DNA from: a virus
Lineage: Duplodnaviria > Heunggongvirae > Uroviricota > Caudoviricetes
DNA length: 15,520 nt
Virus record (IMG/VR): IMGVR_UViG_2541047936_000006
Location: 1-15,520 of that record
Reading direction: 5' to 3' (one strand)
Position 1 is the first letter of the stretch; each line of letters opens with the position of its first letter. Below are positions 2,105 through 14,038 of the stretch, one piece after another. Under the pieces are notes generated by a model. The model had not been told where the DNA came from and ran no database searches. It saw nothing but the letters and a program-made list of their open reading frames with translations. The translations under genes were made by a program, and so were the position numbers.

Positions 2105-3178
2105 TTACGCTCCCGGCTCTGCGGTCGCTTTAGCCGGTGTGGAGAAATCACCGACCTTAATTTTTTCCACCAGACAACCGGCGGCGTAGTCCTCCACCAC
2201 GTAATCAATGTTCATTGACTCGTAGTTCTCCACGCGGTCGAGTTTCGGGTTTTCCTCAATCACGCGGCGATGGCTGTCATCCATGTAGTAGATGGACAGG
2301 TTTTCCAGCTTCGTGATGAGCATCGCATCCGCCGGGAAGTACGGGACGCGTACCGCTGGCAGGTTGCCGATGCGTTTCTGGCTGATGATGACGTCAGCGG
2401 CCAGCATTTCGCTGTTGTCCTGCTCCTTGTTGACGATGGGAAAATACTTGTCCGCCAGTAGCTGACGTCCCACAATCACCACAAGGTCAGGGTCTTCCTG
2501 ATACCACGGCTCAATCAGGTTGTTGGTCGCATCCATCACCAGTGCATCAAGGCTGGCATAATCACCGCCCTTACCCACGCGGATGACCTCAGAGGTGGTG
2601 TGCCCTTCCTCGTCAGTGACCTTGCTCATCACGCGCGCCGGGGCTTCATTGCGGTATTTCTGCAGCCAGCCGACCGCCACATCCTGCAGCATCGGATTGC
2701 TGCTGCGGTCAGAGGTTTCGGCACGCCTCACGCCGTTAAAACCGGCCATGATTAAATCAAGGGACTGGCGTTTGATAATGGCGTTACGGACACGGAGCTG
2801 GAAATCCTGATAACGCGCCCACAGGTCCAGCGTTTTGTAGCGGATATAAAAATCGAAGTTAATCTGGTCGCATTCGTACTTGTTTGACGCCAGCTTCGAG
2901 AAGTCCTTCGGCTGACGCTCGGTGCCACCGGCGGTGTCGGTGGTGCTGGCGATGGAGCCGGTGACACCAATACCAATTTTTTCCCCTTTCATTTCGCTGA
3001 CCGGCACAATGTTGATGCGGGTCAGAAAGTCAGAGGACTCCTGCATGGTGTTCATCAGGGTCTGGGTGACCGACGGTTCAACGGTGAATTTTTTCGACAC
3101 ATCACCGGCGTCGATGCCGTTCAGTTCGGCAACACGGGACAGGTAGGCATTAAATTTAAAGCGGGTTTCCTGGCGCAT
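2105..3178 (-). CDS. N: Major capsid protein gpN, 357 aa
   Basis: ATG at 3178; MRQETRFKFNAYLSRVAELNG...; the length and sequence correspond to P2 gpN. Follows O and precedes M as in P2. Confidence 0.95.
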   Translation of the reverse strand: MRQETRFKFNAYLSRVAELNGIDAGDVSKKFTVEPSVTQTLMNTMQESSDFLTRINIVPVSEMKGEKIGIGVTGSIASTTDTAGGTERQPKDFSKLASNKYECDQINFDFYIRYKTLDLWARYQDFQLRVRNAIIKRQSLDLIMAGFNGVRRAETSDRSSNPMLQDVAVGWLQKYRNEAPARVMSKVTDEEGHTTSEVIRVGKGGDYASLDALVMDATNNLIEPWYQEDPDLVVIVGRQLLADKYFPIVNKEQDNSEMLAADVIISQKRIGNLPAVRVPYFPADAMLITKLENLSIYYMDDSHRRVIEENPKLDRVENYESMNIDYVVEDYAAGCLVEKIKVGDFSTPAKATAEPGA

Positions 3179-3236: not shown

Positions 3237-4091
3237 TCAGCAGTTCGTCATCAGGGCGTCACCGCCACCGCCGGTGGCTTTGCTGCGGCGCTGCTGGGTC
3301 AGACTTTCGGTGTGGTCGAGACTGTTTTTCAGGCGGGTGAATGCCTGACTGGTTTCATCCGCCCTGTCAGTCACATCCTGCTTAAGTGCCGAAAAGGCGG
3401 TTTCCATCTCAGCAAGGCGCTGCTCAGTGGCGCTCAGTTTTTCCTGCACATGCTCAGCGACAGCGGTCACCGCTTCATGCACGTCATTCAGACGGGCGTC
3501 ATCGCTGGCCTGTTTGCGGCCAAAAATGGATTTCACCTTTTCGGTCAGGGCGGTGAACACGGTTTCAGGCAGGTCTTCAAATTCCAGCTCAACAGGCGTT
3601 GCCACTGAAATCAGGTTTTCAGGGCTTAATTTGAAGCGGTTCAGAGGGTTGTGTTTTGCCGTGCGGCAGAATTCCAGGTATTCCGTGCCGAGGCTTGCCG
3701 GGTCATCGGTGACGGCCAGACCCACCAGATAACATTTGCCTGTATTGGCAAAGTTCGGCTGAATTTCCATTGAGGTATAGACCTTCTGCGCGGCCTTGTT
3801 CATCGCGATAAGGTCATCGGTCGGGGTGATTTTCGCAAACAGCGCCCATTTGCCTTTCAGCGCCGAATCATCGTCAATCTTTTCGGCCTTCAGTTCGGCC
3901 ACATCGCCATAACGTTTAAAAATACCGTCAGGCAGGATGCCGCGCAGATGTTCCAGGTTAATGCGGCAACCATAGACACGCGGGTCAAAGGTTTCGGCCA
4001 TTTCCTGAATATCCTGCGCACTGATGACACGCCCGTCACAGGTGTCACCCTCAACGCCGATACGAAAGAATTTTGAGACTTTTTTTGCCAT
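3237..4091 (-). CDS. O: Capsid scaffolding protein gpO, 284 aa
   Basis: The track ORF starts at 4157, but the internal ATG at 4091 (MAKKVSKFFRIGVEGDTCDGRV...) gives exactly 284 aa, the P2 gpO length. AGGA lies about 12 nt upstream. Confidence 0.85.
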   Translation of the reverse strand: MAKKVSKFFRIGVEGDTCDGRVISAQDIQEMAETFDPRVYGCRINLEHLRGILPDGIFKRYGDVAELKAEKIDDDSALKGKWALFAKITPTDDLIAMNKAAQKVYTSMEIQPNFANTGKCYLVGLAVTDDPASLGTEYLEFCRTAKHNPLNRFKLSPENLISVATPVELEFEDLPETVFTALTEKVKSIFGRKQASDDARLNDVHEAVTAVAEHVQEKLSATEQRLAEMETAFSALKQDVTDRADETSQAFTRLKNSLDHTESLTQQRRSKATGGGGDALMTNC

Positions 4092-4264
4092 TGTCAGGAG
4101 TCCTGAATAGTGATTAGAGGAGTCACATGTCGGCATCAGTTTCCCGACGATGCGCATCCTCCGCCATCAGTCCCGGATGGCTTATCACTGACACAACAGC
4201 ACCTTAGCGAATCGCGGGGCGCGACTCAGTAGCCTTGCCGTGTATTCATCACGGCGAGGTATTC
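4092..4264. promoter_or_regulatory. Divergent late-promoter region between O (leftward) and P (rightward), expected to be Ogr-dependent
   Basis: This is the 173-bp intergenic region between the two divergent head operons, which is where P2 has its P_O and P_P promoters. I could not locate an exact TGT-N12-ACA element by eye, so the call is positional. Confidence 0.45.
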
Positions 4265-6037
4265 ATGACCATCACCACAGACACCACTCTTTTACACGAC
4301 CCGCGTCGTCAGGCGGCGCTGCTGTACTGGCAGGGATTTTCCGTGCCGCAGATTGCCGCCATGTTGCAGATGAAACGCCCGACGGTGCAGAGCTGGAAAC
4401 AGCGCGACGGCTGGGACAGCGTTGCCCCCATCAGCCGTGTCGAAATGAGTCTGGAAGCGCGGCTGACCCAGCTCATCATCAAACCGCAGAAAACCGGCGG
4501 TGACTTCAAGGAAATTGACCTGCTCGGACGCCAGATTGAACGACTGGCGCGGGTCAACCGCTACAGTCAGACCGGCAACGAGGCAGACCTTAATCCGAAC
4601 GTCGCTAACCGCAACAAAGGCGGGCGTCGCAAACCGAAAAAGAATTTTTTCAGTGACGAGGCCATCGAAAAGCTGGAGCAGATTTTCTTTGAGCAGTCTT
4701 TCGAATATCAGTTGCACTGGTATCGCGCCGGACTTGAGCACCGCATCCGCGATATCCTGAAATCCCGCCAGATTGGCGCGACGTTTTATTTTTCCCGCGA
4801 GGCGCTGCTGCGCGCCCTGAAAACCGGCCATAACCAGATTTTTCTGTCGGCCAGTAAAACGCAGGCGTATGTGTTCCGCGAATACATCATTGCCTTTGCC
4901 CGGCTGGTTGACGTTGACCTGACCGGTGACCCGATTGTCCTGGGCAATAACGGTGCAAAACTGATTTTTCTCGGCACCAACTCCAACACCGCACAGAGCC
5001 ATAACGGCGACCTGTACGTCGATGAGATTTTCTGGATCCCGAATTTTCAGGTACTGCGTAAGGTGGCATCAGGTATGGCCTCACAGAGTCACCTGCGCTC
5101 GACCTATTTCTCCACCCCGTCCACGCTGGCGCACGACGCCTACCCGTTCTGGTCCGGTGAACTGTTTAACCGGGGACGCGCCAGCGCCGCTGAACGCGTG
5201 GAAATCGACGTCAATCATAACGCACTTGCCGGAGGTCTTCTCTGTGCGGACGGCCAGTGGCGGCAGATTGTCACCATTGAGGACGCGCTGAAAGGCGGCT
5301 GCACGCTGTTCGACATTGAGCAGCTCAAACGCGAAAACAGCGCCGACGATTTTAAAAACCTGTTCATGTGTGAATTTGTTGACGACAAGGCGTCAGTGTT
5401 CCCGTTCGAGGAGCTGCAACGCTGCATGGTCGACACGCTGGAAGAATGGGAAGACTACACGCCGTTTGCCACCAATCCGTTCGGCTCCCGCCCGGTATGG
5501 ATTGGTTACGACCCGTCACACCGTGGCGACAGCGCCGGATGCGTGGTGCTGGCACCGCCGGTGGTGGCCGGTGGCAAATTCAGAATACTTGAGCGCCATC
5601 AGTGGAAAGGCATGGACTTTGCCACCCAGGCGGAATCCATCCGCAAACTCACCGAAAAATACAACGTCGAATACATCGGTATTGATGCCACCGGCCTCGG
5701 TGTCGGCGTGTTCCAGCTCGTGCGCTCGTTCTATCCCGCCGCGCGCGATATCCGCTACACGCCGGAAATGAAAACCGCAATGGTGCTCAAGGCAAAAGAC
5801 GTTATTCGCCGTGGCTGTCTGGAATATGACGTCAGCGCCACCGACATCACCAGCTCGTTTATGGCTATCCGCAAGACCATGACCAGCAGCGGACGCAGCG
5901 CCACCTATGAGGCCAGCCGCAGCGAGGAAGCCAGCCACGCCGACCTCGCCTGGGCGACCATGCACGCTCTGTTAAATGAGCCACTCACCGCCGGTATCAG
6001 CACCCCGCTGACATCCACCATTCTGGAGTTTTACTGA
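4265..6037 (+). CDS. P: Terminase large (ATPase) subunit gpP, 590 aa
   Basis: ATG at 4265, preceded by GAGG at 4257-4260. MTITTDTTLLHDPRRQAALLYWQGFSVPQIAAMLQ... ends ...TILEFY. The length matches P2 gpP, and the stop TGA overlaps the Q start (TGATG). Confidence 0.9.
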   Translation: MTITTDTTLLHDPRRQAALLYWQGFSVPQIAAMLQMKRPTVQSWKQRDGWDSVAPISRVEMSLEARLTQLIIKPQKTGGDFKEIDLLGRQIERLARVNRYSQTGNEADLNPNVANRNKGGRRKPKKNFFSDEAIEKLEQIFFEQSFEYQLHWYRAGLEHRIRDILKSRQIGATFYFSREALLRALKTGHNQIFLSASKTQAYVFREYIIAFARLVDVDLTGDPIVLGNNGAKLIFLGTNSNTAQSHNGDLYVDEIFWIPNFQVLRKVASGMASQSHLRSTYFSTPSTLAHDAYPFWSGELFNRGRASAAERVEIDVNHNALAGGLLCADGQWRQIVTIEDALKGGCTLFDIEQLKRENSADDFKNLFMCEFVDDKASVFPFEELQRCMVDTLEEWEDYTPFATNPFGSRPVWIGYDPSHRGDSAGCVVLAPPVVAGGKFRILERHQWKGMDFATQAESIRKLTEKYNVEYIGIDATGLGVGVFQLVRSFYPAARDIRYTPEMKTAMVLKAKDVIRRGCLEYDVSATDITSSFMAIRKTMTSSGRSATYEASRSEEASHADLAWATMHALLNEPLTAGISTPLTSTILEFY

Positions 6038-7071
6038 TGAGCAAGAAAAAAGGGAAAACACCGCAACCTGCGGCAAAAACAATGACCGCCAGCGCCCCGA
6101 AAATGGAGGCATTCACCTTTGGTGATCCGGTGCCGGTACTCGACCGCCGTGACATTCTGGATTATGTCGAGTGCATCAGTAACGGCAGATGGTATGAGCC
6201 ACCAGTCAGCTTTACCGGTCTGGCAAAAAGCCTGCGTGCTGCCGTGCATCACAGCTCACCGATTTACGTCAAACGCAATATTCTGGCCTCGACATTTATC
6301 CCGCATCCGTGGCTTTCCCAGCAGGATTTCAGCCGCTTTGTGCTGGATTTTCTGGTGTTCGGTAATGCGTTTCTGGAAAAGCGATACAGCACCACCGGTA
6401 AGGTCATCAGACTGGAAACCTCACCGGCAAAATATACCCGCCGTGGTGTGGAAGAGGATGTTTACTGGTGGGTGCCGTCCTTCAACGAGCCGACAGCCTT
6501 CGCACCCGGCTCCGTGTTTCACCTGCTGGAGCCGGATATTAATCAGGAGCTGTACGGCCTGCCGGAATATCTCAGCGCCCTTAACTCTGCCTGGCTGAAT
6601 GAGTCGGCCACGCTGTTCCGCCGCAAGTATTACGAAAACGGCGCTCATGCCGGATACATCATGTACGTCACCGATGCCGTGCAGGATCGCAACGATATCG
6701 AAATGCTTCGCGAAAACATGGTTAAGTCGAAAGGCCGCAATAACTTTAAAAATCTGTTTCTCTATGCCCCACAGGGGAAAGCCGACGGCATTAAAATTAT
6801 CCCGCTCAGTGAAGTGGCAACGAAGGACGATTTTTTTAATATCAAAAAAGCCAGCGCCGCTGACCTGCTGGACGCGCATCGCATCCCCTTTCAGTTGATG
6901 GGGGGCAAGCCGGAGAACGTCGGGTCGCTGGGTGATATTGAGAAAGTGGCAAAGGTCTTTGTCCGCAATGAGCTTATCCCGTTACAGGACAGGATCCGCG
7001 AGATAAACGGCTGGCTCGGTCAGGAGGTCATCCGATTTAAAAACTACTCACTGGACACTGACAACGGCTGA
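6037..7071 (+). CDS. Q: Portal (capsid vertex) protein gpQ, 344 aa
   Basis: MSKKKGKTPQPAAKTMTAS...; same length as P2 gpQ and translationally coupled to P. Followed by a terminator and cos, as at the left end of the P2 genome. Confidence 0.9.
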   Translation: MSKKKGKTPQPAAKTMTASAPKMEAFTFGDPVPVLDRRDILDYVECISNGRWYEPPVSFTGLAKSLRAAVHHSSPIYVKRNILASTFIPHPWLSQQDFSRFVLDFLVFGNAFLEKRYSTTGKVIRLETSPAKYTRRGVEEDVYWWVPSFNEPTAFAPGSVFHLLEPDINQELYGLPEYLSALNSAWLNESATLFRRKYYENGAHAGYIMYVTDAVQDRNDIEMLRENMVKSKGRNNFKNLFLYAPQGKADGIKIIPLSEVATKDDFFNIKKASAADLLDAHRIPFQLMGGKPENVGSLGDIEKVAKVFVRNELIPLQDRIREINGWLGQEVIRFKNYSLDTDNG

Positions 7072-7098: not shown

Positions 7099-7240
7099 AC
7101 ACCCCGTCATCACCCCCTCACACGCTCACCACCGCACAAAACACCCCGCAGACACACCAACGCCTCAACGGGCAGACTAAGCGCCGTCACGACGCGCTCA
7201 GACGCTGAAAAAATAAAATCCGCACCACCGCCAGCGCGCA

Positions 7241-7259
7241 GTGCTTTCCCCGCCTCGCC
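7241..7259 (-). other. P2/P4/186-type cos cohesive-end sequence (19 nt)
   Basis: The plus strand reads GTGCTTTCCCCGCCTCGCC, the reverse complement of GGCGAGGCGGGGAAAGCAC, which I recall as the P2/P4 cohesive end. It lies about 170 bp beyond the Q stop, matching P2 left-end topology. Confidence 0.75.
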
Positions 7260-7518
7260 CGCCCGCTTCATGGGGAGGTTTTAATGCAAACGCATCAGGA
7301 AGGGCAGACCTAGTCACATGTAGAATACGATAGCAATAAAAAAGTCTAATTAGAATGCAAATTGATGCAACTCTATGCCCTCCAAGAACTCCAAACCTGA
7401 AAGATTTATGTAAAACATAGTGTTCGTTTCACCAAAATACATATAAACTACATTAAAATAGAAATTTGTCTCACCTATAAGCCATTTAGACAACAGATTA
7501 ATGAGGTTTGTATCACAA

Positions 7519-8664
7519 ATGACCACAAACGAGATACTTTCGCAGCTTATCAGTCTTGGACTCAAAGGGGATAAAGTTGCTTTTGTTCGGCAGGCTTCGA
7601 AACTCGCGCGTTCCTATGATTCTATGGGGCTGCCTGAGCTTGCTTCAGCCATTAGAGGTAGTATTCAAGATAAAAACACGTTTAACTTGCAGAAAGTATC
7701 ACGCAGTACATCACCTATTTTTGAACGTCTTGATACATTACCTGTAGATAAAGAAACTAAATTTGATTTAGCAGACGTAACTCAACCGTCTTCTGAAATT
7801 CAACTCCCATTGTTGAAAGATAGCACTCTGAAAAAAATTAAAGAATTTTTGACTTTCACTGAACGAGCTAAAGAATTAAAGGATGCCGGTCTTGGCGTGA
7901 CATCCTCTATGATTTTATATGGGCCACCAGGTTGTGGTAAAACCTTGACATCAAAATATATTGCATCCTGTCTAAATTTACCGCTTCTTACTGCAAGATG
8001 TGACTCCTTAGTCTCATCATATCTGGGGTCTACTTCTAAAAATATCAGGCAGCTATTTGAGTATGCAAGTAAAGCACCATGTGTTTTATTTCTAGATGAA
8101 CTAGATTCTCTAGCAAAGGCTAGAGATGATCAGCATGAGTTAGGTGAACTGAAGAGGGTGGTGGTTTCTTTATTGCAAAATATTGACAATCTACCTGAAG
8201 AAACAATATTGATTGCTGCAAGTAATCATGAAAATCTTCTAGATAGCGCAGTTTGGAGGCGCTTTGAGTATAGAATATCTATTGGATTGCCTGATTTTGA
8301 AGTCAGAAAACAACTATTTGAACAATATTCAAACATAAAAGCTACATATGACGATTTTGTTGATGACCTTGCGGAAATATCATCAGGGCTAAACTGCTCA
8401 TTTATAGAACAATGCTGCTTAAGATCTGAGCGACATGCTCTGGTTTACAATAATAAACAAATCGATACCCGATTTTTAGTCGAGGCTATCTTAGAAGCGA
8501 AGGGAGTTACATTTGATGAAGAAGATAATTTACTTATAAAGATTGTGACCACTCTCAGAGAATACAATCCCAAAAGATTTACAATACGAAAGATAGCAAA
8601 AATACTAGGGCTTTCAAATGCTAAAGTGTCAAGGCTAACTAAGAACTATAGAGAGATATTATGA
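7519..8664 (+). CDS. Classical AAA-family ATPase, 381 aa (candidate IetA-like defence ATPase)
   Basis: Walker A is GPPGCGKT (Lys141, nt 7921-7944) and Walker B is VLFLDELD (nt 8083-8106). The second region of homology, ...AASNHENLLDSAVWRRFEYRISIGLPD, resembles the Vps4/katanin-type RRFE/D motif. Start chosen at the ATG at 7519 (GAGG 12 nt upstream); the track start is 7501. The stop overlaps the next start (ATGA). Confidence 0.85.
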   Translation: MTTNEILSQLISLGLKGDKVAFVRQASKLARSYDSMGLPELASAIRGSIQDKNTFNLQKVSRSTSPIFERLDTLPVDKETKFDLADVTQPSSEIQLPLLKDSTLKKIKEFLTFTERAKELKDAGLGVTSSMILYGPPGCGKTLTSKYIASCLNLPLLTARCDSLVSSYLGSTSKNIRQLFEYASKAPCVLFLDELDSLAKARDDQHELGELKRVVVSLLQNIDNLPEETILIAASNHENLLDSAVWRRFEYRISIGLPDFEVRKQLFEQYSNIKATYDDFVDDLAEISSGLNCSFIEQCCLRSERHALVYNNKQIDTRFLVEAILEAKGVTFDEEDNLLIKIVTTLREYNPKRFTIRKIAKILGLSNAKVSRLTKNYREIL

Positions 8665-10925
8665 GTAACAAAGAAAGACCAATAAAAATAATTGAGGCGA
8701 CACCTCAAGATTTTACTGAAAAAACATATAATTTCGGAAAGAAACAACCTATCCGAACAGTAACAACTAGTCTAAAAAATAGACTCAAACAAGAAGTCGA
8801 TGACGTTAAAAATTTTTTCCAGAGCTCATTTAAAAAATGGCCCAATATACCGGCGGTGGCTAGAGTTACTCTTCATGAAAAAGCTCTTGCTAAGTCACAT
8901 CGCCCATCAAGCCTATTAGGTGATAATACATGTCCCGTAATAGGCAGTGATAATTTTGGAGAATTACTTATAAGTGTTACTGAAAAAGGGTTAGCACAAC
9001 TTCGCAAAAAAATTGAAAATAGCACTAATTCTCATAATGGGACAGTACATATTGCTGTAATTGAAAAGATCGAACCTTTTAGTCTTAACCATGATGTTAT
9101 AGATAAAAATAAATCAGATAGTTTTCTTCTGAAACTCTTTGACCATAAAGATAGAACAACTAACCGCAGTATCGACAAAGAATTAATGGAATTTGCAGAT
9201 GAACTAGGAATACAAAAACCCAAAAAGTATGATATCAGTTCAGATTTGAGTATATATGAAGTAAAAGGGAATGATAACATCGCCCAACTGGCAAGTTTTA
9301 TTGGCATACGAAAATTAGAACCTATGCCAACATTTGGTCTTACTCATACAGTATCGCAATATATTCCTGCTGAAACTCTAGACCTAGATGATTTTCCCTT
9401 ACCTCAAGAGGATAAACATTATCCACTACTCGGAATTATAGATAGCGGAGTCGATCCCAATAACAACATACTTAGGCCATGGATTTGGGATAGTTTAGAT
9501 TTAGTAAAAGGAGAACACGACTATTCTCATGGGAACATGGTTGCAAGTTTAGCAATTAATGGAAGATGGTTGAATAACTATGCTGGTTTTCCTCAATGCC
9601 AAGCTGAAATTGTTGATGTTGCAGCCTTTCCCAAAGATGGTACGCTCAAATTGCCACAATTAATGAAAGCTATCCGAGAGGCTGTGACCACCTATCCAGA
9701 AGTACGTGTATGGAATCTGTCATTAGGTTGTCAATCCCCATGTTCTGAAGACAGCTTCTCTGAATTGGGGCATTTTTTAAATGCACTTCATGATGAGCAT
9801 GATTGTCTTTTCGTCGTAGCATCCGGCAACTACATTTATGATCCTCAACGAACCTGGCCTCCTCAAGAATTAGGTGGGCATGACAGAATATCAGCCCCCG
9901 CAGATTCTGTTCGTTCATTAACTGTTGGCTCAGTTGCCCATTTAGAATCGTCTGACTCTGTGGTCAAAAGATTTGAACCTTCATCTTTTTCTAGAAGAGG
10001 TCCCGGCCCAGCCTTTATACCCAAACCAGAGATAAATCACTTTGGAGGTAATTGTGACAGTAAATTAAACTGTGAACATACCGGAATCATAGCTATTGGC
10101 GAGGACAATGCTCTTTGCGAAAGTATTGGCACAAGTTTATCAGCACCGTTAATCTCAAGTTTAGCGGCATCACTGTGGCATGAACTAGATGTTAATGGTT
10201 CTATTTCACCATCGCCTGAACGTATCAAGGCACTATTAATTCATTCTGCGTTAAAAAACTCACCAGCCAAAACGGAGCATTATGCGTTTAATTATCAAGG
10301 ATTTGGACGCCCAAGCGATCATATAAATGATATTATTGGTTGCAATAAAAATGAGATTACATTTCTATTTGAAATAGATACCCGAGAAGGTATTGAATTC
10401 AGTAGAACGCCATTTGTAATACCACAGTCATTACGTACTGAGGATGGAAAATTCACAGGTGAAATTATTATGACACTCGTTTATTCTCCACCGCTTGATT
10501 ATGACTACCCATCTGAATATTGCCGTTCTAATGTGGATGTGTCATTCGGGACTTACACTTATGATCCAGTTAACGCTAAATGGATACATAGCGGAAAAAT
10601 TCCACAAATAAAAGAAAAGAGTGAATTATTTGAAAAGGTACTGATAGAAAATGGCTTCAAATGGTCTCCAGTCAAAGTTTATAGAAAACAATTTCCGCAA
10701 GGTATAAATGGGGAGCAATGGAGACTTAAACTTGATGTTCAGAGACGAGCAGAGCAAGAGCCTCTATCTTCACCTCAACGTGCTGTATTGGCTATTACGT
10801 TAAGATCTCTTGCCAATTCTACTACAGTCTACAACGAAGCCGAGGTTGAAATAAATAATCTTGGTTGGAAAGAAACTGATATTGTTGTTCGTGAACAACC
10901 AAAAATCAGGATTCGTCAAAAATAA
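8661..10925 (+). CDS. Subtilisin-like serine peptidase (S8 family), 754 aa, with large extra N- and C-terminal regions (candidate IetS-like)
   Basis: The catalytic triad appears in the canonical order D-H-S: Asp261 in GIIDSGVD (nt 9441-9443), His290 in HGNMVAS (9528-9530), Ser492 in GTSLSAP (10134-10136), with an ASGN oxyanion-hole motif. About 250 aa N-terminal and about 220 aa C-terminal have no recognisable motifs. AT-rich codon usage. Confidence 0.9.
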   Translation: MSNKERPIKIIEATPQDFTEKTYNFGKKQPIRTVTTSLKNRLKQEVDDVKNFFQSSFKKWPNIPAVARVTLHEKALAKSHRPSSLLGDNTCPVIGSDNFGELLISVTEKGLAQLRKKIENSTNSHNGTVHIAVIEKIEPFSLNHDVIDKNKSDSFLLKLFDHKDRTTNRSIDKELMEFADELGIQKPKKYDISSDLSIYEVKGNDNIAQLASFIGIRKLEPMPTFGLTHTVSQYIPAETLDLDDFPLPQEDKHYPLLGIIDSGVDPNNNILRPWIWDSLDLVKGEHDYSHGNMVASLAINGRWLNNYAGFPQCQAEIVDVAAFPKDGTLKLPQLMKAIREAVTTYPEVRVWNLSLGCQSPCSEDSFSELGHFLNALHDEHDCLFVVASGNYIYDPQRTWPPQELGGHDRISAPADSVRSLTVGSVAHLESSDSVVKRFEPSSFSRRGPGPAFIPKPEINHFGGNCDSKLNCEHTGIIAIGEDNALCESIGTSLSAPLISSLAASLWHELDVNGSISPSPERIKALLIHSALKNSPAKTEHYAFNYQGFGRPSDHINDIIGCNKNEITFLFEIDTREGIEFSRTPFVIPQSLRTEDGKFTGEIIMTLVYSPPLDYDYPSEYCRSNVDVSFGTYTYDPVNAKWIHSGKIPQIKEKSELFEKVLIENGFKWSPVKVYRKQFPQGINGEQWRLKLDVQRRAEQEPLSSPQRAVLAITLRSLANSTTVYNEAEVEINNLGWKETDIVVREQPKIRIRQK

Positions 10926-10930
10926 GCATT

Positions 10931-10955
10931 ATGGTCACCTTTTATAGGTGACCAT
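10931..10955. terminator. Hairpin between the convergent cargo operons (possible bidirectional terminator)
   Basis: ATGGTCACC (10931-10939), loop TTTTATA, GGTGACCAT (10947-10955); a perfect 9-bp stem between the stop at 10925 and the stop at 10959. There is no strong U-tract on either side. Confidence 0.45.
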
Positions 10956-10958
10956 TTA

Positions 10959-11720
10959 CTACACCTTATTATTTTCAACTATTTTATGAATATCCATATC
11001 AAACCAAGAAACTTGCGAAATTTCTTTTAGTGGAAAGATGATACTAGTATCAGCATCCTCAAGCTCTCTATATTCATTCACCAAGATTACTTTCAATGAA
11101 TCCTTATCTCTATACCCAGAGATAATAGGATAGATTGAAACATACTGGTTAGGTCCTTCTTTCTCGTTAGGCTCACCTAATGCGTTAACAATTCCTACAT
11201 ATGTCTTTTTATTTTGCAACGTAATAAGTATTGAACGTCTATCAACTAACGAATCAAAAAATATTTCATCCATTGGATTATCATTAATAAGCTCTTGCCT
11301 CATCCTTAGCATGACAAGATTCTCATAATCAATATTGGCAGCCTTTACCCCTTGGATATAATTTATAATTTTAGCTCTATATATAACCAAATATCTAGCA
11401 CCGACACTCCATATCCAAGCCAAAAATATCGTTCCACATGAAAGTAAAATCATCCATCCTATGATTCTTTCAGTACCATTGTCACTAAGTTTGAGATCTA
11501 ATTGTTCCCGAACCATCGTGACAGGATGGAAGCTCGGACATATCCATTTTATTAAGTAAGCTATAATCAATGTCCATATAAAACACCACAGACCAAAGGC
11601 GGCTGACTTCATATATAACAACTGCCCATCATAACGGTGTAATCTATAGAAATGATAAGGATGAGTGGTTAATACAATATAACCACTCACAAGTAATGGA
11701 ATAATTAATAAAGCAAACAT
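10959..11720 (-). CDS. Uncharacterised membrane protein, 253 aa: three predicted N-terminal TM helices plus a soluble C-terminal domain of about 145 aa
   Basis: ATG at 11720. Hydrophobic stretches are FALLIIPLLVSGYIVLTT, AAFGLWCFIWTLIIAYLIKWI and IIGWMILLSCGTIFLAWIWSV. Its start lies 2 nt after the stop of the upstream small ORF (TAATAATG). No family recognised. Confidence 0.7.
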   Translation of the reverse strand: MFALLIIPLLVSGYIVLTTHPYHFYRLHRYDGQLLYMKSAAFGLWCFIWTLIIAYLIKWICPSFHPVTMVREQLDLKLSDNGTERIIGWMILLSCGTIFLAWIWSVGARYLVIYRAKIINYIQGVKAANIDYENLVMLRMRQELINDNPMDEIFFDSLVDRRSILITLQNKKTYVGIVNALGEPNEKEGPNQYVSIYPIISGYRDKDSLKVILVNEYRELEDADTSIIFPLKEISQVSWFDMDIHKIVENNKV

Positions 11721-11722
11721 TA

Positions 11723-11959
11723 TTAATTCCCTTTAGCCATTTTTTCTTCTTGCTTTACCTGCTCAGAAACTATTTTTCTTGCTTTAATTTTCATCAATTT
11801 TACTGTATCTGAGCTTGCCAAGTCTTCTTTAGATGTGATAATCGCGCCTCGACCTACCACCTCAACAGTGTTTGTTCCAGATGCTTCAAGCCTCCTCGCC
11901 AGTTCTCTTTCCTTTTCAATAGCAGCTTTACCTATAATACGTTCAAATATATTCATCAT
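11723..11959 (-). CDS. Small charged hypothetical protein, 78 aa, first gene of a two-gene operon
   Basis: ATGATG start at 11959/11956 with a strong SD (GGAGG about 6 nt upstream on the minus strand). The stop is tightly coupled to the membrane-protein start. Sequence MMNIFERIIGKAAIEKERELARRLEASGTNTVEVVGRG...; no family recognised. Confidence 0.6.
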   Translation of the reverse strand: MMNIFERIIGKAAIEKERELARRLEASGTNTVEVVGRGAIITSKEDLASSDTVKLMKIKARKIVSEQVKQEEKMAKGN

Positions 11960-12050
11960 TTAACCTCCACTTGATTGATGCCAAGATAGTAATCACCTCC
12001 TCACAATATCTTACCAACCTAACAATTAACAGAACACTGTGTATAAGTCC

Positions 12051-12078
12051 AGTATAGTTTAATTAATAAATTAGGCAA
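12051..12078 (-). promoter_or_regulatory. Candidate sigma70 promoter for the minus-strand two-gene operon
   Basis: On the minus strand: TTGCCT (-35), a 16-nt spacer, TATACT (-10), about 90 nt upstream of the ATG at 11959 in an AT-rich intergenic region. Found by eye only. Confidence 0.3.
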
Positions 12079-12473
12079 ATCTATCAAAATGGTATTTTGT
12101 TAAAAATTCAGCTAACTCTGAGGTTGGTAAAACAGTCCACCAGATGTATCGCTAAAGCACTTAGAAACCACTATAACCATCCTAAGTGTACCAGTCAGTC
12201 TGTTTGTCTAATCGCATCACTATGCTCGTTATTCTATCCCCCGCCAATCCTGAGCTGGCTGCGTTCTCTATCGTCTGCGTGGTGGCGGTGCAGCGCTGGG
12301 CTGACCGATATAGTTAAGCCATACGTAATTATCCCGGACTATTTCGGCACACCCGACCAGCTCATCGGGCGTCAGATTTTCGTTGACCATAATCTGCTGT
12401 AGACGGTGAACAATGGCCATCAGCTTGATATTTTTAGTTTTATGCTGCGGTATCTCGCCTGGTATTCTGTGCA

Positions 12474-12929
12474 TTATCCAAGCCACCCGTTTTGCTGTGC
12501 ACGCTCCACCTGTTCATCTGAATAGTTCCATATCCCATCCGCACCAACCACTGCCCCGCCAGACATCCCCGTCTCTGGTTCATACACAACAGCAAGGCCG
12601 AGCTGATGCATAATTTCATGATTAATTCTGAATACCAGACCACGCTCACTAAGTTCTTTCCAGTTCACAAACTCATATGCGCCTGTATTAAGCAGCTCAA
12701 TACTTAGCAAGACATAATCTTCCAGCCAGTCTGACAAGTCAGTAACATCTGTTATCCGGGCTTCAACCTTTCGCCCCGTATACACACCCTGCACCCATTC
12801 ATGCAAAATCAACGTGTCCCCGCGCTCATAATTACGGTCATTTTTCCGAAACTCTGCGCGTTTCTTTCCTTCCAGCACAAGGTCAAAATATTTTGCGTGC
12901 AGCTTTACCTCGTGAATTTTTGCCATCAT
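12474..12929 (-). CDS. DUF3850-like (ASCH/PUA-like fold) domain protein, about 151 aa
   Basis: MAKIHEVKLHAKYFDLVLEGKKRAEFRKNDRNYERGDTLILHEW...YTGRKVEARITDV matches the DUF3850 consensus as I recall it. ATG at 12929 with GGAG about 9 nt upstream; it overlaps the stop of the A fragment (ATGATG/TGA). The track ORF starts at a GTG at 12962. Confidence 0.65.
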   Translation of the reverse strand: MMAKIHEVKLHAKYFDLVLEGKKRAEFRKNDRNYERGDTLILHEWVQGVYTGRKVEARITDVTDLSDWLEDYVLLSIELLNTGAYEFVNWKELSERGLVFRINHEIMHQLGLAVVYEPETGMSGGAVVGADGIWNYSDEQVERAQQNGWLG

Positions 12930-14038
12930 TTCCACTCCATTACTGTTGAGAATCCCGGCCACTCATCAGCGACCGGATACGTGAATTTTTTCCCGTCATA
13001 ATTTACGGTCGCGCCACGCGCCAGCGCCTCAAGCTCCCATCGCTGCGGCCTGATACCGTTCTGAGCAAGGTCAACGCGGATACGGGTAATTTGCATTCTT
13101 TCCGACCGGGTCAGTCTGGCCGATGGTGCAATTTCATGTGGTTTTAACGGGCTTCCGTTTCTTTGCTGACGGTTTGGCGTTCTCAGGTCGTGTTTTAATG
13201 CACCCCTGAGCGCCCTCACGACCTCCGGGTCATTCCATTCGATAACACCATCATCAACCAGATTAAGCACTGCTGCGGCGTGTTCAGAAGGCGTGGGAGC
13301 CGGTGACGAAGTATCACCACTGGTGAGCTTTCCACAGTTATTGACAGGACTCCGAGGCGCGGCGATGCCGCTTTTTAAAGTCAAAGGCTCAACGACCGGC
13401 ACTTTCGGAACAATGCGCCAGTCCGTGGTTCTGGTGATATGAATATGACGCGCGCCGAGATGCGGCGCGTAAATGCCGACCACTCTCTCGACTTCTTCCT
13501 CGTACTCGTTAACTTCATCCGACGGACTACGGGCGACCCTGACAGTCTGACAATCGCGCGAGACATTTGCCCCACCCTGCGCGCTGATATACAGCGCAAA
13601 ATCACCACTGTCTGCGGCGGCGCGTGCAGCCTCGACGCGCTCGTCAAACTCATCAGCAATGCTGACGCCGCGAGGCAATTTGCGTAGTTCACGGTAAGCC
13701 CCCATTGTCGGCAGACCAACCGTTTTAAATTGCGGGATGCGCCACGTTGACGCCCATGCGGTAACAGCCGCCGCAGTATCTTTCAGCGGTCTGCCGGTAT
13801 CGTTATCGAGCTGACCATCCAGTGCATAGCCGTCGATATTTTTTGAAATGTATTTCGCGATATATCCCGCAGCACCGCCCCGGTTACCGATGTAAAGAGC
13901 AAAACCTTCTTTCGACAGCAAATCAGATGGGCGCTCTGAAATCTGAATGCTTTTACGTTTGGCTTCATTTTCGAAACTTGCCTCATCGCTAGTTGGACAA
14001 GAAATTTCTACATTTGTCGTCACTTTGCTATCCTCCAT
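12926..14038 (-). CDS. Replication initiation endonuclease gpA family, C-terminal portion only (about 370 aa against 761 aa in P2)
   Basis: Contains the rolling-circle initiator active-site Tyr motif GYIAKYISKNIDG about 60 residues from the start, where P2 gpA has its catalytic Tyr near residue 450. No cox or B gene lies upstream. Possible starts are the ATG at 14038 or the GTG at 14023 (GGAGGA 8 nt upstream). Confidence 0.65.
   Translation of the reverse strand: MEDSKVTTNVEISCPTSDEASFENEAKRKSIQISERPSDLLSKEGFALYIGNRGGAAGYIAKYISKNIDGYALDGQLDNDTGRPLKDTAAAVTAWASTWRIPQFKTVGLPTMGAYRELRKLPRGVSIADEFDERVEAARAAADSGDFALYISAQGGANVSRDCQTVRVARSPSDEVNEYEEEVERVVGIYAPHLGARHIHITRTTDWRIVPKVPVVEPLTLKSGIAAPRSPVNNCGKLTSGDTSSPAPTPSEHAAAVLNLVDDGVIEWNDPEVVRALRGALKHDLRTPNRQQRNGSPLKPHEIAPSARLTRSERMQITRIRVDLAQNGIRPQRWELEALARGATVNYDGKKFTYPVADEWPGFSTVMEWK

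What the first reader, a model, noticed from the sequence alone, without database searches (positions are those of the whole stretch)
7519..8664. The partner ATPase is a Vps4/katanin-like classical AAA protein, not an OLD/ABC or STAND ATPase
The second region of homology with an RRFE motif and the GPPGCGKT P-loop place it among classical AAA unfoldase-type proteins. This suggests the pair may act as a two-component unfoldase-protease assembly, analogous in logic to FtsH or ClpXP but encoded on mobile DNA. The roughly 130-aa N-terminal domain is uncharacterised.
Basis: partly seen in the sequence, partly recalled or inferred. Interest (0 to 1): 0.5.

Follow-up and report, generated by a model that had tools for sequence, protein, structure and literature searches.

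The report
Known IetA ATPase of IetAS defence
The gene is the AAA ATPase half (IetA) of the already described IetAS ATPase–protease toxin–antitoxin and anti-phage system, carried as cargo in the known defence hotspot of a P2-like E. coli prophage, so the finding is correct in outline but ordinary.

Summary
The ORF at 7519-8664 is real and intact, and it matches the RefSeq CDS WP_000210436.1. It is a classical-clade AAA ATPase. It has the GPPGCGKT Walker A, a Walker B DE, a YLG pore loop, a sensor-1 Asn and WRRFE in the second region of homology. It overlaps by ATGA a 754-aa S8 peptidase gene with an invariant catalytic triad.

Both proteins match the PADLOC IetA and IetS models over their full length (E 9e-132 and 1e-273). 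The pair is therefore the known IetAS system. It sits between cos and the gpA side of a P2-like prophage, which is the published P2 defence hotspot.

The ClpXP/FtsH-like reading conflicts with published genetics. There the protease is toxic on its own and the ATPase neutralises it. I favour an ATP-driven restraining antitoxin that a phage cue releases. The real mechanism is unpublished. Novelty: already known. Interest: low.

The parts
7519..8664 (+). ietA, a 381-aa classical-clade AAA ATPase (the antitoxin/regulator half of IetAS)
   Evidence: PADLOC IetA PDLC02196 E 9.1e-132, profile positions 3-370 of 374. Pfam AAA PF00004 110 bits. NCBIfam IteA_antiphage is the top hit at 387 bits, below its 510 cut-off. 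The RefSeq CDS has the same coordinates.
7525..7668 (+). IetA N-terminal three-helix bundle (residues 3-50), followed by a low-confidence linker (residues 53-70, nt 7675-7728)
   Evidence: AlphaFold2 model: helices H3-16, H19-35 and H39-50; pLDDT below 50 for residues 53-66 and 68-70. No Pfam family was detected.
7738..7776 (+). Conserved linker motif LPVDKETKFDLAD (residues 74-86)
   Evidence: D86 is invariant, and P75, D77 and L84 are conserved in at least 90% of 58 homologues. Function unknown.
7921..7944 (+). Walker A / P-loop GPPGCGKT (residues 135-142)
   Evidence: G135, P136, P137, G138, G140 and K141 are invariant.
8014..8028 (+). Pore loop 1, SSYLG (residues 166-170), preceded by the clade-specific short helix 161-164
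   Evidence: S166, S167, L169 and G170 are invariant; residue 168 is Y/F, with L in some homologues. DSSP on the model gives E156-160, H161-164, H169-183.
8083..8163 (+). Walker B VLFLDE (D193, E194) and the unusually conserved pore-loop-2 stretch KARDDQHELGELKRVV (residues 200-215)
   Evidence: D193, E194, K200, R202, D203, D204, E207, G209, E210, L211, K212, R213, V214 and V215 are invariant. pLDDT is about 59 for residues 201-210.
8224..8268 (+). Sensor-1 N236 and the second region of homology LLDSAVWRRFE (R247 and R248 are candidate arginine fingers), which lacks the Pro-Gly dipeptide
   Evidence: N236, H237, W246, R247, R248 and F249 are invariant. In the alignment with CDC48, FtsH, PAN and CdvC, the two-residue gap is shared with CdvC (also visible in the PDB alignments).
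8521..8658 (+). IetA C-terminal three-helix tail (residues 335-380), helix-turn-helix-like
   Evidence: Model helices H335-349, H356-363 and H367-380. S366 is invariant and F354 is conserved in at least 90% of homologues. Only sub-threshold Pfam HTH hits were found: HTH_28 19.8 bits vs cut-off 25, plus HTH_23, HTH_24, MarR and others.
8661..10925 (+). ietS, a 754-aa cytoplasmic S8 (subtilisin-like) peptidase and the toxin/effector half. Catalytic residues: D261 (nt 9441-9443), H290 (9528-9530), N390 (9828-9830), S492 (10134-10136)
7241..7259 (-). A 19-nt sequence identical to the P2 cohesive-end (cos) sequence. It marks the gpQ-side boundary of the hotspot
   Evidence: Exact match, with 0 expected by chance. 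That this 19-mer is the P2 cos sequence is from my own memory. The hotspot position next to cos, between gpQ and gpA, is from PMC9122126.
10931..10955 (.). Perfect 10-bp hairpin between the convergent ietS gene and the 253-aa ORF. It is the likely end of the ietAS transcript
   Evidence: Terminator-like scan. It is not followed by a clear T-run on the + strand, so its function is inferred.

Best explanation
The ORF is ietA, the AAA ATPase of the two-gene IetAS system. IetAS was first described as a plasmid toxin-antitoxin pair and later as an abortive-infection anti-phage system. Here it is cargo in the cos-proximal gpQ-gpA hotspot of a P2-like prophage of E. coli.

Shown here:
- IetA belongs to the classical AAA clade and forms its own family within it.
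- It keeps every residue needed for ATP hydrolysis, plus an aromatic pore loop 1 and an invariant pore loop 2. It therefore looks like a hexameric, substrate-threading remodeller.
- It is translationally coupled to an S8 peptidase with an intact triad.
- The gene pair is conserved across phyla.

Taken from the literature: the protease is the toxin, the ATPase neutralises it, protease activity is needed for defence, and at least one homologous system is switched on by a single phage protein and acts by abortive infection.

Inferred mechanism, which is my commitment:
1. In uninfected cells, IetA spends ATP to hold or remodel IetS into an inactive state. It acts as an energy-dependent antitoxin working on the protein.
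2. A phage cue blocks or diverts IetA. This may occur through its N-terminal three-helix domain, by competition for the pore, or by a fall in ATP.
3. IetS is then released and cleaves essential cell or phage proteins, stopping growth before phage progeny are made.

The C-terminal HTH-like tail may additionally autoregulate the operon.

My confidence that this is IetA of IetAS is about 0.95. My confidence in the restraining-remodeller mechanism is about 0.45.
For: Identity:
- PADLOC IetA E 9e-132 and IetS E 1e-273, both full-length.
- NCBIfam IteA and IteS are the top hits.
- The identical island is present in 12 of 5426 complete E. coli genomes, annotated as "AAA family ATPase" plus "S8 family peptidase".
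- The flanks are P2-like: terminase, portal, capsid, gpA, integrase.
- The gpA-gpQ locus is the published P2 defence hotspot (PMC9122126; PMC13586616).

AAA clade:
- PF00004 110 bits.
- The short helix 161-164 before the pore loop is present.
- The IetA family is monophyletic at 99.5% bootstrap.

Threading competence: Walker A/B, SSYLG, N236 and R247/R248 are invariant, and pore loop 2 is invariant.

Pairing: 20 of 24 IetA-like loci have an IetS homologue directly downstream, against 0 of 53 generic AAA loci. The genes overlap by ATGA.

Antitoxin role:
- In Mycoplasma, deleting the ATPase alone is lethal, whereas deleting the protease or both is viable. Neutralisation works in E. coli with the two genes under separate promoters (PMC8562856; PMC6755753).

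Abortive infection triggered by one phage protein: bioRxiv 10.1101/2022.08.27.505566.
Against: - No structure, interaction or biochemical data exist for any IetAS. [quoted passage not shown]
- Nothing computed here shows that IetA touches IetS. No multimer prediction was possible, and no natural fusion was found; the apparent one in L017 has two stop codons.
- The window proteins fall below NCBIfam's equivalog cut-offs (387 vs 510 and 782 vs 900). They are a diverged subtype, and no experiment was done on this exact pair.
- The literature's TA evidence comes from Agrobacterium, Mycoplasma and an ietHAS variant, not from this subtype.
- An intact threading pore fits substrate delivery or protease activation equally well.
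Confidence: 0.6

Rival explanations
1. IetA and IetS form a two-component unfoldase-protease machine like ClpXP, FtsH or the proteasome. IetA recognises and unfolds substrates and hands them to IetS for degradation.
For: The pore loops and ATPase motifs of a threading AAA unfoldase are intact and conserved. The closest structural neighbours include the protease-coupled FtsH, YME1 and PAN. The genes are translationally coupled and co-conserved. Protease activity is needed for defence.
Against: - The protease is toxic by itself and the ATPase counteracts it. IetS therefore does not need IetA to cut proteins in vivo.
- IetS is a subtilisin-fold endopeptidase whose closest structures are monomeric or pro-form subtilases (Tk-SP, KP-43, CspB), not a self-compartmentalised chamber.
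- It is modelled as one compact chain (pTM 0.91).
- The IetA C-terminus is not conserved, so there is no HbYX-like docking tail.
Confidence: 0.15
2. IetA is a conditional activator (maturase). IetS is made as a latent zymogen, held shut by its own N-terminal region of about 250 residues. On sensing phage, IetA pulls this region out or unfolds it, switching the protease on.
For: - IetS has about 250 residues before the catalytic domain, with two beta-alpha-beta-beta-alpha-beta-like units (DSSP).
- The most conserved N-terminal stretch of IetS (residues 60-105, including the ALAKSHRP motif in which A75, A77, K78, R81 and P82 are invariant) has lower model confidence, as an exposed handle would.
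Against: Loss of the ATPase is lethal when the protease is present, so the protease becomes active without IetA. No Pfam Inhibitor_I9 or any other family is detectable in the IetS N-terminal region. The KSHRP motif is confined to the closer subfamily.
Confidence: 0.15
3. IetA neutralises IetS mainly as a classical type II antitoxin-repressor. Its C-terminal helix-turn-helix binds the ietAS promoter and keeps protease expression low, and the AAA domain plays a sensing or oligomerisation role only.
For: There is a conserved C-terminal three-helix tail with many weak hits, almost all to HTH families. One homologue is named "DNA-binding protein" by its source (P0077).
Against: - All HTH hits are below Pfam cut-offs.
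- No convincing operator-like repeat lies upstream of ietA.
- Neutralisation was seen in E. coli with toxin and antitoxin on separately inducible promoters.
- Some IetA homologues with an IetS partner lack the tail (L017, 324 aa).
Confidence: 0.05

Closest known systems
IetAS (ietA/ietS of Agrobacterium pTiC58; anti-phage ietAS of Gao et al. 2020; PADLOC IetA/IetS and NCBIfam IteA/IteS models)
   Same: The two-gene order is the same: AAA ATPase, then S8 peptidase. Both proteins match the profiles over their full length. Catalytic residues are intact. The pair is carried on a mobile element.
   Different: This is a diverged subtype. Scores are below the NCBIfam equivalog cut-offs, and RefSeq therefore names the proteins only "AAA family ATPase" and "S8 family peptidase". 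This exact pair has not been tested experimentally, as far as the held literature shows.
Mycoplasma mycoides TA132/133 (AAA-ATPase / subtilisin-like protease toxin-antitoxin pair)
   Same: The architecture and sizes are the same (353 aa ATPase upstream of a 757 aa S8 protease). The ATPase is essential only when the protease is present.
   Different: It is chromosomal in a minimal genome, and no phage-defence role has been shown. I did not measure its sequence relationship to the window proteins.
ietHAS (Liu-DS4): IetAS plus an SNF2 helicase
   Same: It shares the IetA and IetS modules. The protease is required for defence, and ietA mutants could not be cloned.
   Different: The window has no helicase gene next to ietAS. 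The neighbouring genes are a TM protein and a 78-aa protein on the opposite strand.
Vps4 / CdvC, katanin, spastin (the 'meiotic' group of classical AAA proteins)
   Same: It is a single AAA domain with an SRH lacking the Pro-Gly dipeptide (WR--RF vs LR--RF). The overall layout is similar: a small N-terminal helical bundle, a flexible linker, then the AAA domain.
FtsH, PAN/proteasome and ClpXP (AAA+ unfoldase coupled to a protease)
   Different: The partner is a subtilisin-fold serine endopeptidase, not a chambered protease. The genetics indicates antagonism, not cooperation.
Trip13/Pch2-HORMA module of CBASS (Cap6/Cap7)
   Different: The partner is different (HORMA and a cyclase rather than a protease). 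IetA is no closer to Trip13 than to other classical AAA proteins. The analogy is in logic only.

Membership tests
IetAS system (IetA component) | Full-length match to an IetA profile | tested here: met
   PADLOC PDLC02196 E 9.1e-132, residues 9-382 of the 387-aa translation against profile positions 3-370 of 374. Three further IetA models also match.
IetAS system (IetA component) | Score above the NCBIfam IteA_antiphage equivalog cut-off (a threshold of one curated model, not a biological criterion) | tested here: not met
   387.3 bits vs cut-off 510. It is still the top hit by more than 280 bits over the next family. I read this as a diverged subtype.
IetAS system | An S8 peptidase (IetS) gene immediately downstream on the same strand | tested here: met
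   The gene at 8661-10925 overlaps ietA by ATGA. PADLOC IetS PDLC02197 E 1.1e-273. The same arrangement is found in 20 of 24 IetA-like loci.
IetAS system | Catalytically intact ATPase and protease | tested here: met
   In IetA, K141, D193/E194, N236 and R247/R248 are invariant. In IetS, D261, H290, N390 and S492 are invariant.
IetAS system | Toxin-antitoxin behaviour and phage protection | not testable with these tools
   Known only from the literature on homologues.
Classical AAA clade | Pfam AAA (PF00004) above the gathering score | tested here: met
   110.4 bits vs 21.2, residues 137-262 of the 387-aa translation.
Classical AAA clade | A short helix inserted between strand beta2 and helix alpha2, just before pore loop 1 | tested here: met
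   The model has E156-160, H161-164, the loop SSYLG at 166-170, then H169-183. This is a predicted structure, not an experimental one.
Classical AAA clade | A second region of homology with arginine fingers, and a lid without a sensor-2 arginine | tested here: met
   R247 and R248 are invariant. The lid aligns with the classical GxSGAD segment, with no Arg at the sensor-2 position.
Classical AAA clade | The nearest structures are classical-clade proteins | tested here: met
Vps4/katanin/spastin ('meiotic') subfamily | Groups with Vps4/CdvC in a phylogeny of AAA domains | tested here: not met
   NJ tree of 37 domains over 226 columns with 200 bootstraps. The IetA family has 99.5% support and CdvC 99.5%, but the IetA+CdvC split has 3.5%. 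No eukaryotic katanin or spastin sequences were available, so only archaeal Vps4 (CdvC) was tested.
Vps4/katanin/spastin ('meiotic') subfamily | Best profile or structure match is to Vps4-type proteins | tested here: not met
Vps4/katanin/spastin ('meiotic') subfamily | SRH with adjacent arginines (no Pro-Gly between them) | tested here: met
   IetA has WR--RF and CdvC has LR--RF, against RPGRF in CDC48, FtsH and PAN. The gap is also seen in other unlabelled AAA proteins (L041, L042, L055), so it is not exclusive.
Vps4/katanin/spastin ('meiotic') subfamily | N-terminal MIT domain and a Vps4_C-type C-terminal element | tested here: inconclusive
   There were no Pfam MIT or Vps4_C hits at E <= 0.01. 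A three-helix N-terminal bundle is predicted, but its fold could not be searched on its own.
ClpXP / FtsH / proteasome-type AAA-protease machines | The partner is a self-compartmentalising protease, and the ATPase is required for proteolysis | tested here: not met
   The partner is a subtilisin-fold enzyme most like monomeric or pro-form subtilases. The literature shows the protease is toxic without the ATPase. The oligomeric state itself could not be tested.
OLD/ABC-type or STAND ATPases | Pfam AAA_15/AAA_21 or NACHT/NB-ARC domains | tested here: not met
   None was listed. Only P-loop-length, sub-threshold matches appeared: AAA_16 at 23.1 vs 32.6 and NPHP3_N at 17.5 vs 24.8.

The most novel reading that the evidence does not exclude
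IetA could be an energy-consuming antitoxin of a kind not yet described mechanistically. In this reading, a dedicated AAA threading motor continuously engages the N-terminal region of its own partner, a zymogen-like cytoplasmic subtilase, to keep it off. The motor's invariant pore-2 loop is the best-conserved part of the family. Anything that stalls the motor, such as a phage protein bound to the three-helix N-domain or ATP depletion, would then fire the protease. That would define an ATP-gated protease switch in immunity, distinct both from ClpXP-type degradation and from stoichiometric type II antitoxins.
Probability: 0.3. Interest if true: 0.6.

Novelty: already known. Interest (0 to 1): 0.15.

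Why it matters
As a discovery it adds little. Standard defence-system annotators would already call this pair IetAS, and its location is the published P2 hotspot.

The remaining value is in the mechanism. IetAS is widespread in plasmids, prophages and even minimal mycoplasma genomes, yet how an AAA motor and a subtilase make a toxin-antitoxin and abortive-infection switch is still unknown. Three results from this work give concrete mutagenesis and trapping targets for anyone working on that question:
- a residue-level map of IetA (intact threading pore, invariant pore loop 2, conserved LPVD...LAD linker motif, HTH-like tail);
- a three-part IetS (N-terminal region, S8 catalytic domain, beta-domain);
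- the demonstration that IetA is its own classical-AAA family rather than a Vps4 relative.

Tried and rejected
1. **Apparent IetA-IetS fusion in Halomonas (L017).** My ORF script reported a 1126-aa ORF. I rejected it as fusion evidence.

4. **Pfam and PDB profile search of the IetA C-terminal tail.** Only sub-threshold HTH hits were found.

5. **Search for operator-like repeats or a strong promoter upstream of ietA.** There was one weak 16-nt inverted repeat, and promoter-like sites were no more frequent than in shuffled sequence.

6. **KSHRP motif of IetS as a universal handle.** It is present only in the closer subfamily.

7. **Primary papers.** Yamamoto 2009 and Gao 2020 are not held, so their content is cited only through papers that describe them.

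8. **Mechanistic IetAS paper.** None was found in two literature searches.

9. **Not done.** I did not run the exhaustive protein-representative search or a metagenome scan, because the family assignment was already unambiguous.

Full report
**Observation**

The window holds an uninterrupted + strand ORF at 7501-8664. Its translation contains LYGPPGCGKT and LDSAVWRRFEYRISIGLPD.

- It is the RefSeq start of the identical protein WP_000210436.1, "AAA family ATPase", in E. coli DCE7.
- It is where 58 homologues begin.
- It is preceded by GAGG.

Pfam AAA (PF00004) matches at 110 bits, E 1e-31. The stop codon overlaps (ATGA) the start of a 754-aa ORF at 8661-10925 that carries Peptidase_S8.

**What it is**

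Both proteins hit the PADLOC models of the IetAS defence system over their whole length. IetA matches PDLC02196 at E 9e-132, and IetS matches PDLC02197 at E 1e-273. NCBIfam's "anti-phage ATPase IteA" and "S8 family anti-phage peptidase IteS" are the top hits. Both fall below their equivalog cut-offs (387 vs 510 and 782 vs 900 bits), which explains the generic RefSeq names.

The surrounding genes are those of a P2-like phage:
- small terminase, 1358-2101
- capsid, 2105-3178
- scaffold, 3237-4157
- large terminase, 4235-6037
- portal, 6037-7071
- DUF3850/Orf91-type gene, then gpA, the C repressor and the integrase

ietAS lies in a low-GC island (0.34-0.40 against about 0.55). The island begins just after an exact copy of a 19-nt sequence at 7241-7259 that I recall as the P2 cos sequence (the identity is from memory).

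The locus between gpQ and gpA next to cos is the published P2 hotspot of anti-phage systems (PMC9122126; PMC13586616). The same island occurs in 12 of 5426 complete E. coli genomes at 99% identity or more. Its flanks match Peduovirus phages. IetA homologues also occur in other temperate phages.

**Anatomy of IetA**

An alignment of 58 homologues (40-89% identity) and an AlphaFold2 model (pLDDT 83.6) give the following layout:
- a three-helix bundle, residues 3-50
- a low-confidence linker, residues 53-70
- a conserved LPVDxExxxxLAD motif, residues 74-86
- the AAA module from residue 101
- a three-helix tail, residues 335-380

The following residues are invariant:
- Walker A: G135-K141
- pore loop 1: S166-S167-(Y/F; L in some)-L169-G170
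- Walker B: D193/E194
- sensor 1: N236
- SRH: W246-R247-R248-F249
- an unusually conserved stretch in pore loop 2: R202, D203, D204, E207, G209, E210, L211, K212, R213, V214, V215

The tail gives only sub-threshold hits, almost all to helix-turn-helix families.

The "about 130-aa uncharacterised N-terminal domain" is therefore about 100 residues with recognisable parts. No family could be assigned to it.

**AAA clade**

The classical clade is supported by four lines:
- PF00004.
- The short helix 161-164 before pore loop 1.
- An SRH with arginines, and a classical lid without a sensor-2 arginine.

OLD/ABC or STAND membership is excluded at the Pfam level.

The narrower "Vps4/katanin-like" label was tested in four ways:
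1. NCBIfam scores are flat: PAN 103, FtsH 97, CdvC (archaeal Vps4) 94, CDC48 92 bits.
2. I took reference proteins from fetched loci, labelled them with NCBIfam, and added E. coli FtsH. Against the window's AAA domain, per-domain phmmer scores are 73-93 bits for every labelled reference group and 100 for one FtsH-like protein. Labelled CdvC proteins score lowest of the references on the IteA model.
3. In a neighbour-joining tree (37 domains, 226 columns, 200 bootstraps), the IetA family is monophyletic (99.5%) and so is CdvC (99.5%). A joint IetA+CdvC split has 3.5% support.
4. IetA (WR--RF) and CdvC (LR--RF) lack the Pro-Gly dipeptide found in CDC48, FtsH and PAN (RPGRF). Several unlabelled AAA proteins share the gap too.

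IetA is therefore its own family inside the classical clade, not a Vps4 relative.

**The partner and the pairing**

IetS has an invariant triad D261/H290/S492 and the oxyanion N390. It is modelled confidently as a single compact chain (pLDDT 89.4, pTM 0.91). It has three parts:
- an N-terminal region of about 250 residues
- the S8 domain
- a C-terminal beta domain

I examined 24 IetA-like loci from one-genome-per-species contigs. They came from Planctomycetota, Pseudomonas, Roseburia, Acidobacteriota, Bacteroides, Neobacillus, Collinsella, Halomonas and others. Of these, 20 have an IetS homologue starting within about 170 nt downstream on the same strand. None of 53 generic AAA loci has one. 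A seeming fusion in Halomonas was an artefact of my script.

**What the literature says**

[quoted passage not shown] - In Mycoplasma, deleting the ATPase alone is lethal, while deleting the protease or both is tolerated. The ATPase neutralises the protease in E. coli when each is on its own promoter (PMC8562856 and PMC6755753).
- A Bacillus cereus ietAS acts by abortive infection and is triggered by expression of one SPbeta gene (bioRxiv 10.1101/2022.08.27.505566).
- An E. coli (ECOR52) ietAS gives limited protection alone and synergises with Zorya II (bioRxiv 10.1101/2022.08.21.504612).
- No structural or biochemical study was found. The two primary papers are not held.

**Mechanism**

Shown:
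- a hydrolysis-competent, pore-loop-bearing classical AAA protein
- translational coupling to an active-looking cytoplasmic subtilase
- strong co-conservation of the pair

From the literature: antagonism (the ATPase protects the cell from the protease) and triggered abortive infection.

Inferred, and my preferred model at about 0.45: IetA is an ATP-driven restraining remodeller of IetS, and a phage cue that stalls or diverts it frees the protease. The invariance of pore loop 2 suggests one dedicated client in the pore.

Rivals:
It conflicts with the protease being toxic alone and with the subtilisin fold.
- A maturase that strips a propeptide-like N-terminal region (about 0.15). It fits the IetS architecture but conflicts with the same genetics.
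- Pure transcriptional repression through the HTH-like tail (about 0.05). It conflicts with neutralisation from separate promoters and with tail-less homologues.

**Verdict**

The broad classification is correct, the Vps4 label is not specifically supported, and the unfoldase-protease analogy is unlikely as stated. The object is a member of an already named and catalogued system in an already described hotspot. Novelty: already known. Interest: low (0.15). The open mechanism of IetAS is the only part with real upside.

Noticed in passing
window 10959-11720 (-) and 11723-11959 (-): This looks like a second cargo module in the same low-GC island, convergent with ietS. It comprises a 253-aa protein with three apparent N-terminal transmembrane helices and a soluble C-domain (phrog_3630), plus an upstream 78-aa protein (phrog_37504). 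Neither has Pfam, PADLOC or NCBIfam matches. Homologues of the 253-aa protein lie at the genome ends of other temperate phages (Cronobacter phiES15, Pseudomonas vB_Pae_U5) without IetAS. It may be an independent superinfection-exclusion or defence gene pair.
   Followed up: partly
window 12926-14038 (-), compared with L001 13827-18237: The 370-aa ORF is a fusion. Its first ~55 residues resemble a Cox-type regulator (phrog_1831), and the rest matches the C-terminal part of the replication endonuclease gpA (phrog_91 positions 456-752). Relative to the complete E. coli genomes that carry the same island and cover this end of the window, about 3.3 kb is missing (the rest of cox, gene B, small early genes and the N-terminal half of gpA). 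None of those genomes shows this deletion. The prophage in this window is therefore probably replication-defective, while its defence cargo is intact.
   Followed up: partly
window 7241-7259 (-): An exact copy of GGCGAGGCGGGGAAAGCAC, which I recall as the P2 cohesive-end sequence. It sits in the GC-rich spacer between the portal gene and the low-GC island. It places ietAS directly next to cos, as in the published hotspot.
   Followed up: partly
window 7100-12500: There is a sharp composition break. GC is 0.34-0.40 in the ietAS island against 0.52-0.60 in the P2 structural genes. This is consistent with recent acquisition of the cargo from a low-GC donor.
   Followed up: no
window 8883-8906 (IetS residues 75-82, within the conserved stretch 60-105): The most conserved part of the IetS N-terminal region is the motif ALAKSHRP. 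A75, A77, K78, R81 and P82 are invariant, and S79 and H80 are conserved in at least 90% of 51 homologues. Model confidence is locally lower (about 74), as for an exposed loop. Among more distant IetS homologues, only 3 of those checked keep KSHRP. It is a candidate processing or interaction site.
   Followed up: partly
window 10931-10955: A perfect 10-bp hairpin (ATGGTCACCT ATAAA AGGTGACCAT) lies in the 33-nt gap between the convergent ietS gene and the 253-aa ORF. It is probably a bidirectional terminator.
   Followed up: no
L022-L025 and L028 (genome-contig loci): A more distant IetA-like branch (327-373 aa, SRH 'WR/FR--RFDD') is followed by longer S8 proteins (867-946 aa, or 517 aa in L028). 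These match IetS mainly in the catalytic domain. This may be an unnamed IetAS subtype with a different protease N-terminal region.
   Followed up: partly
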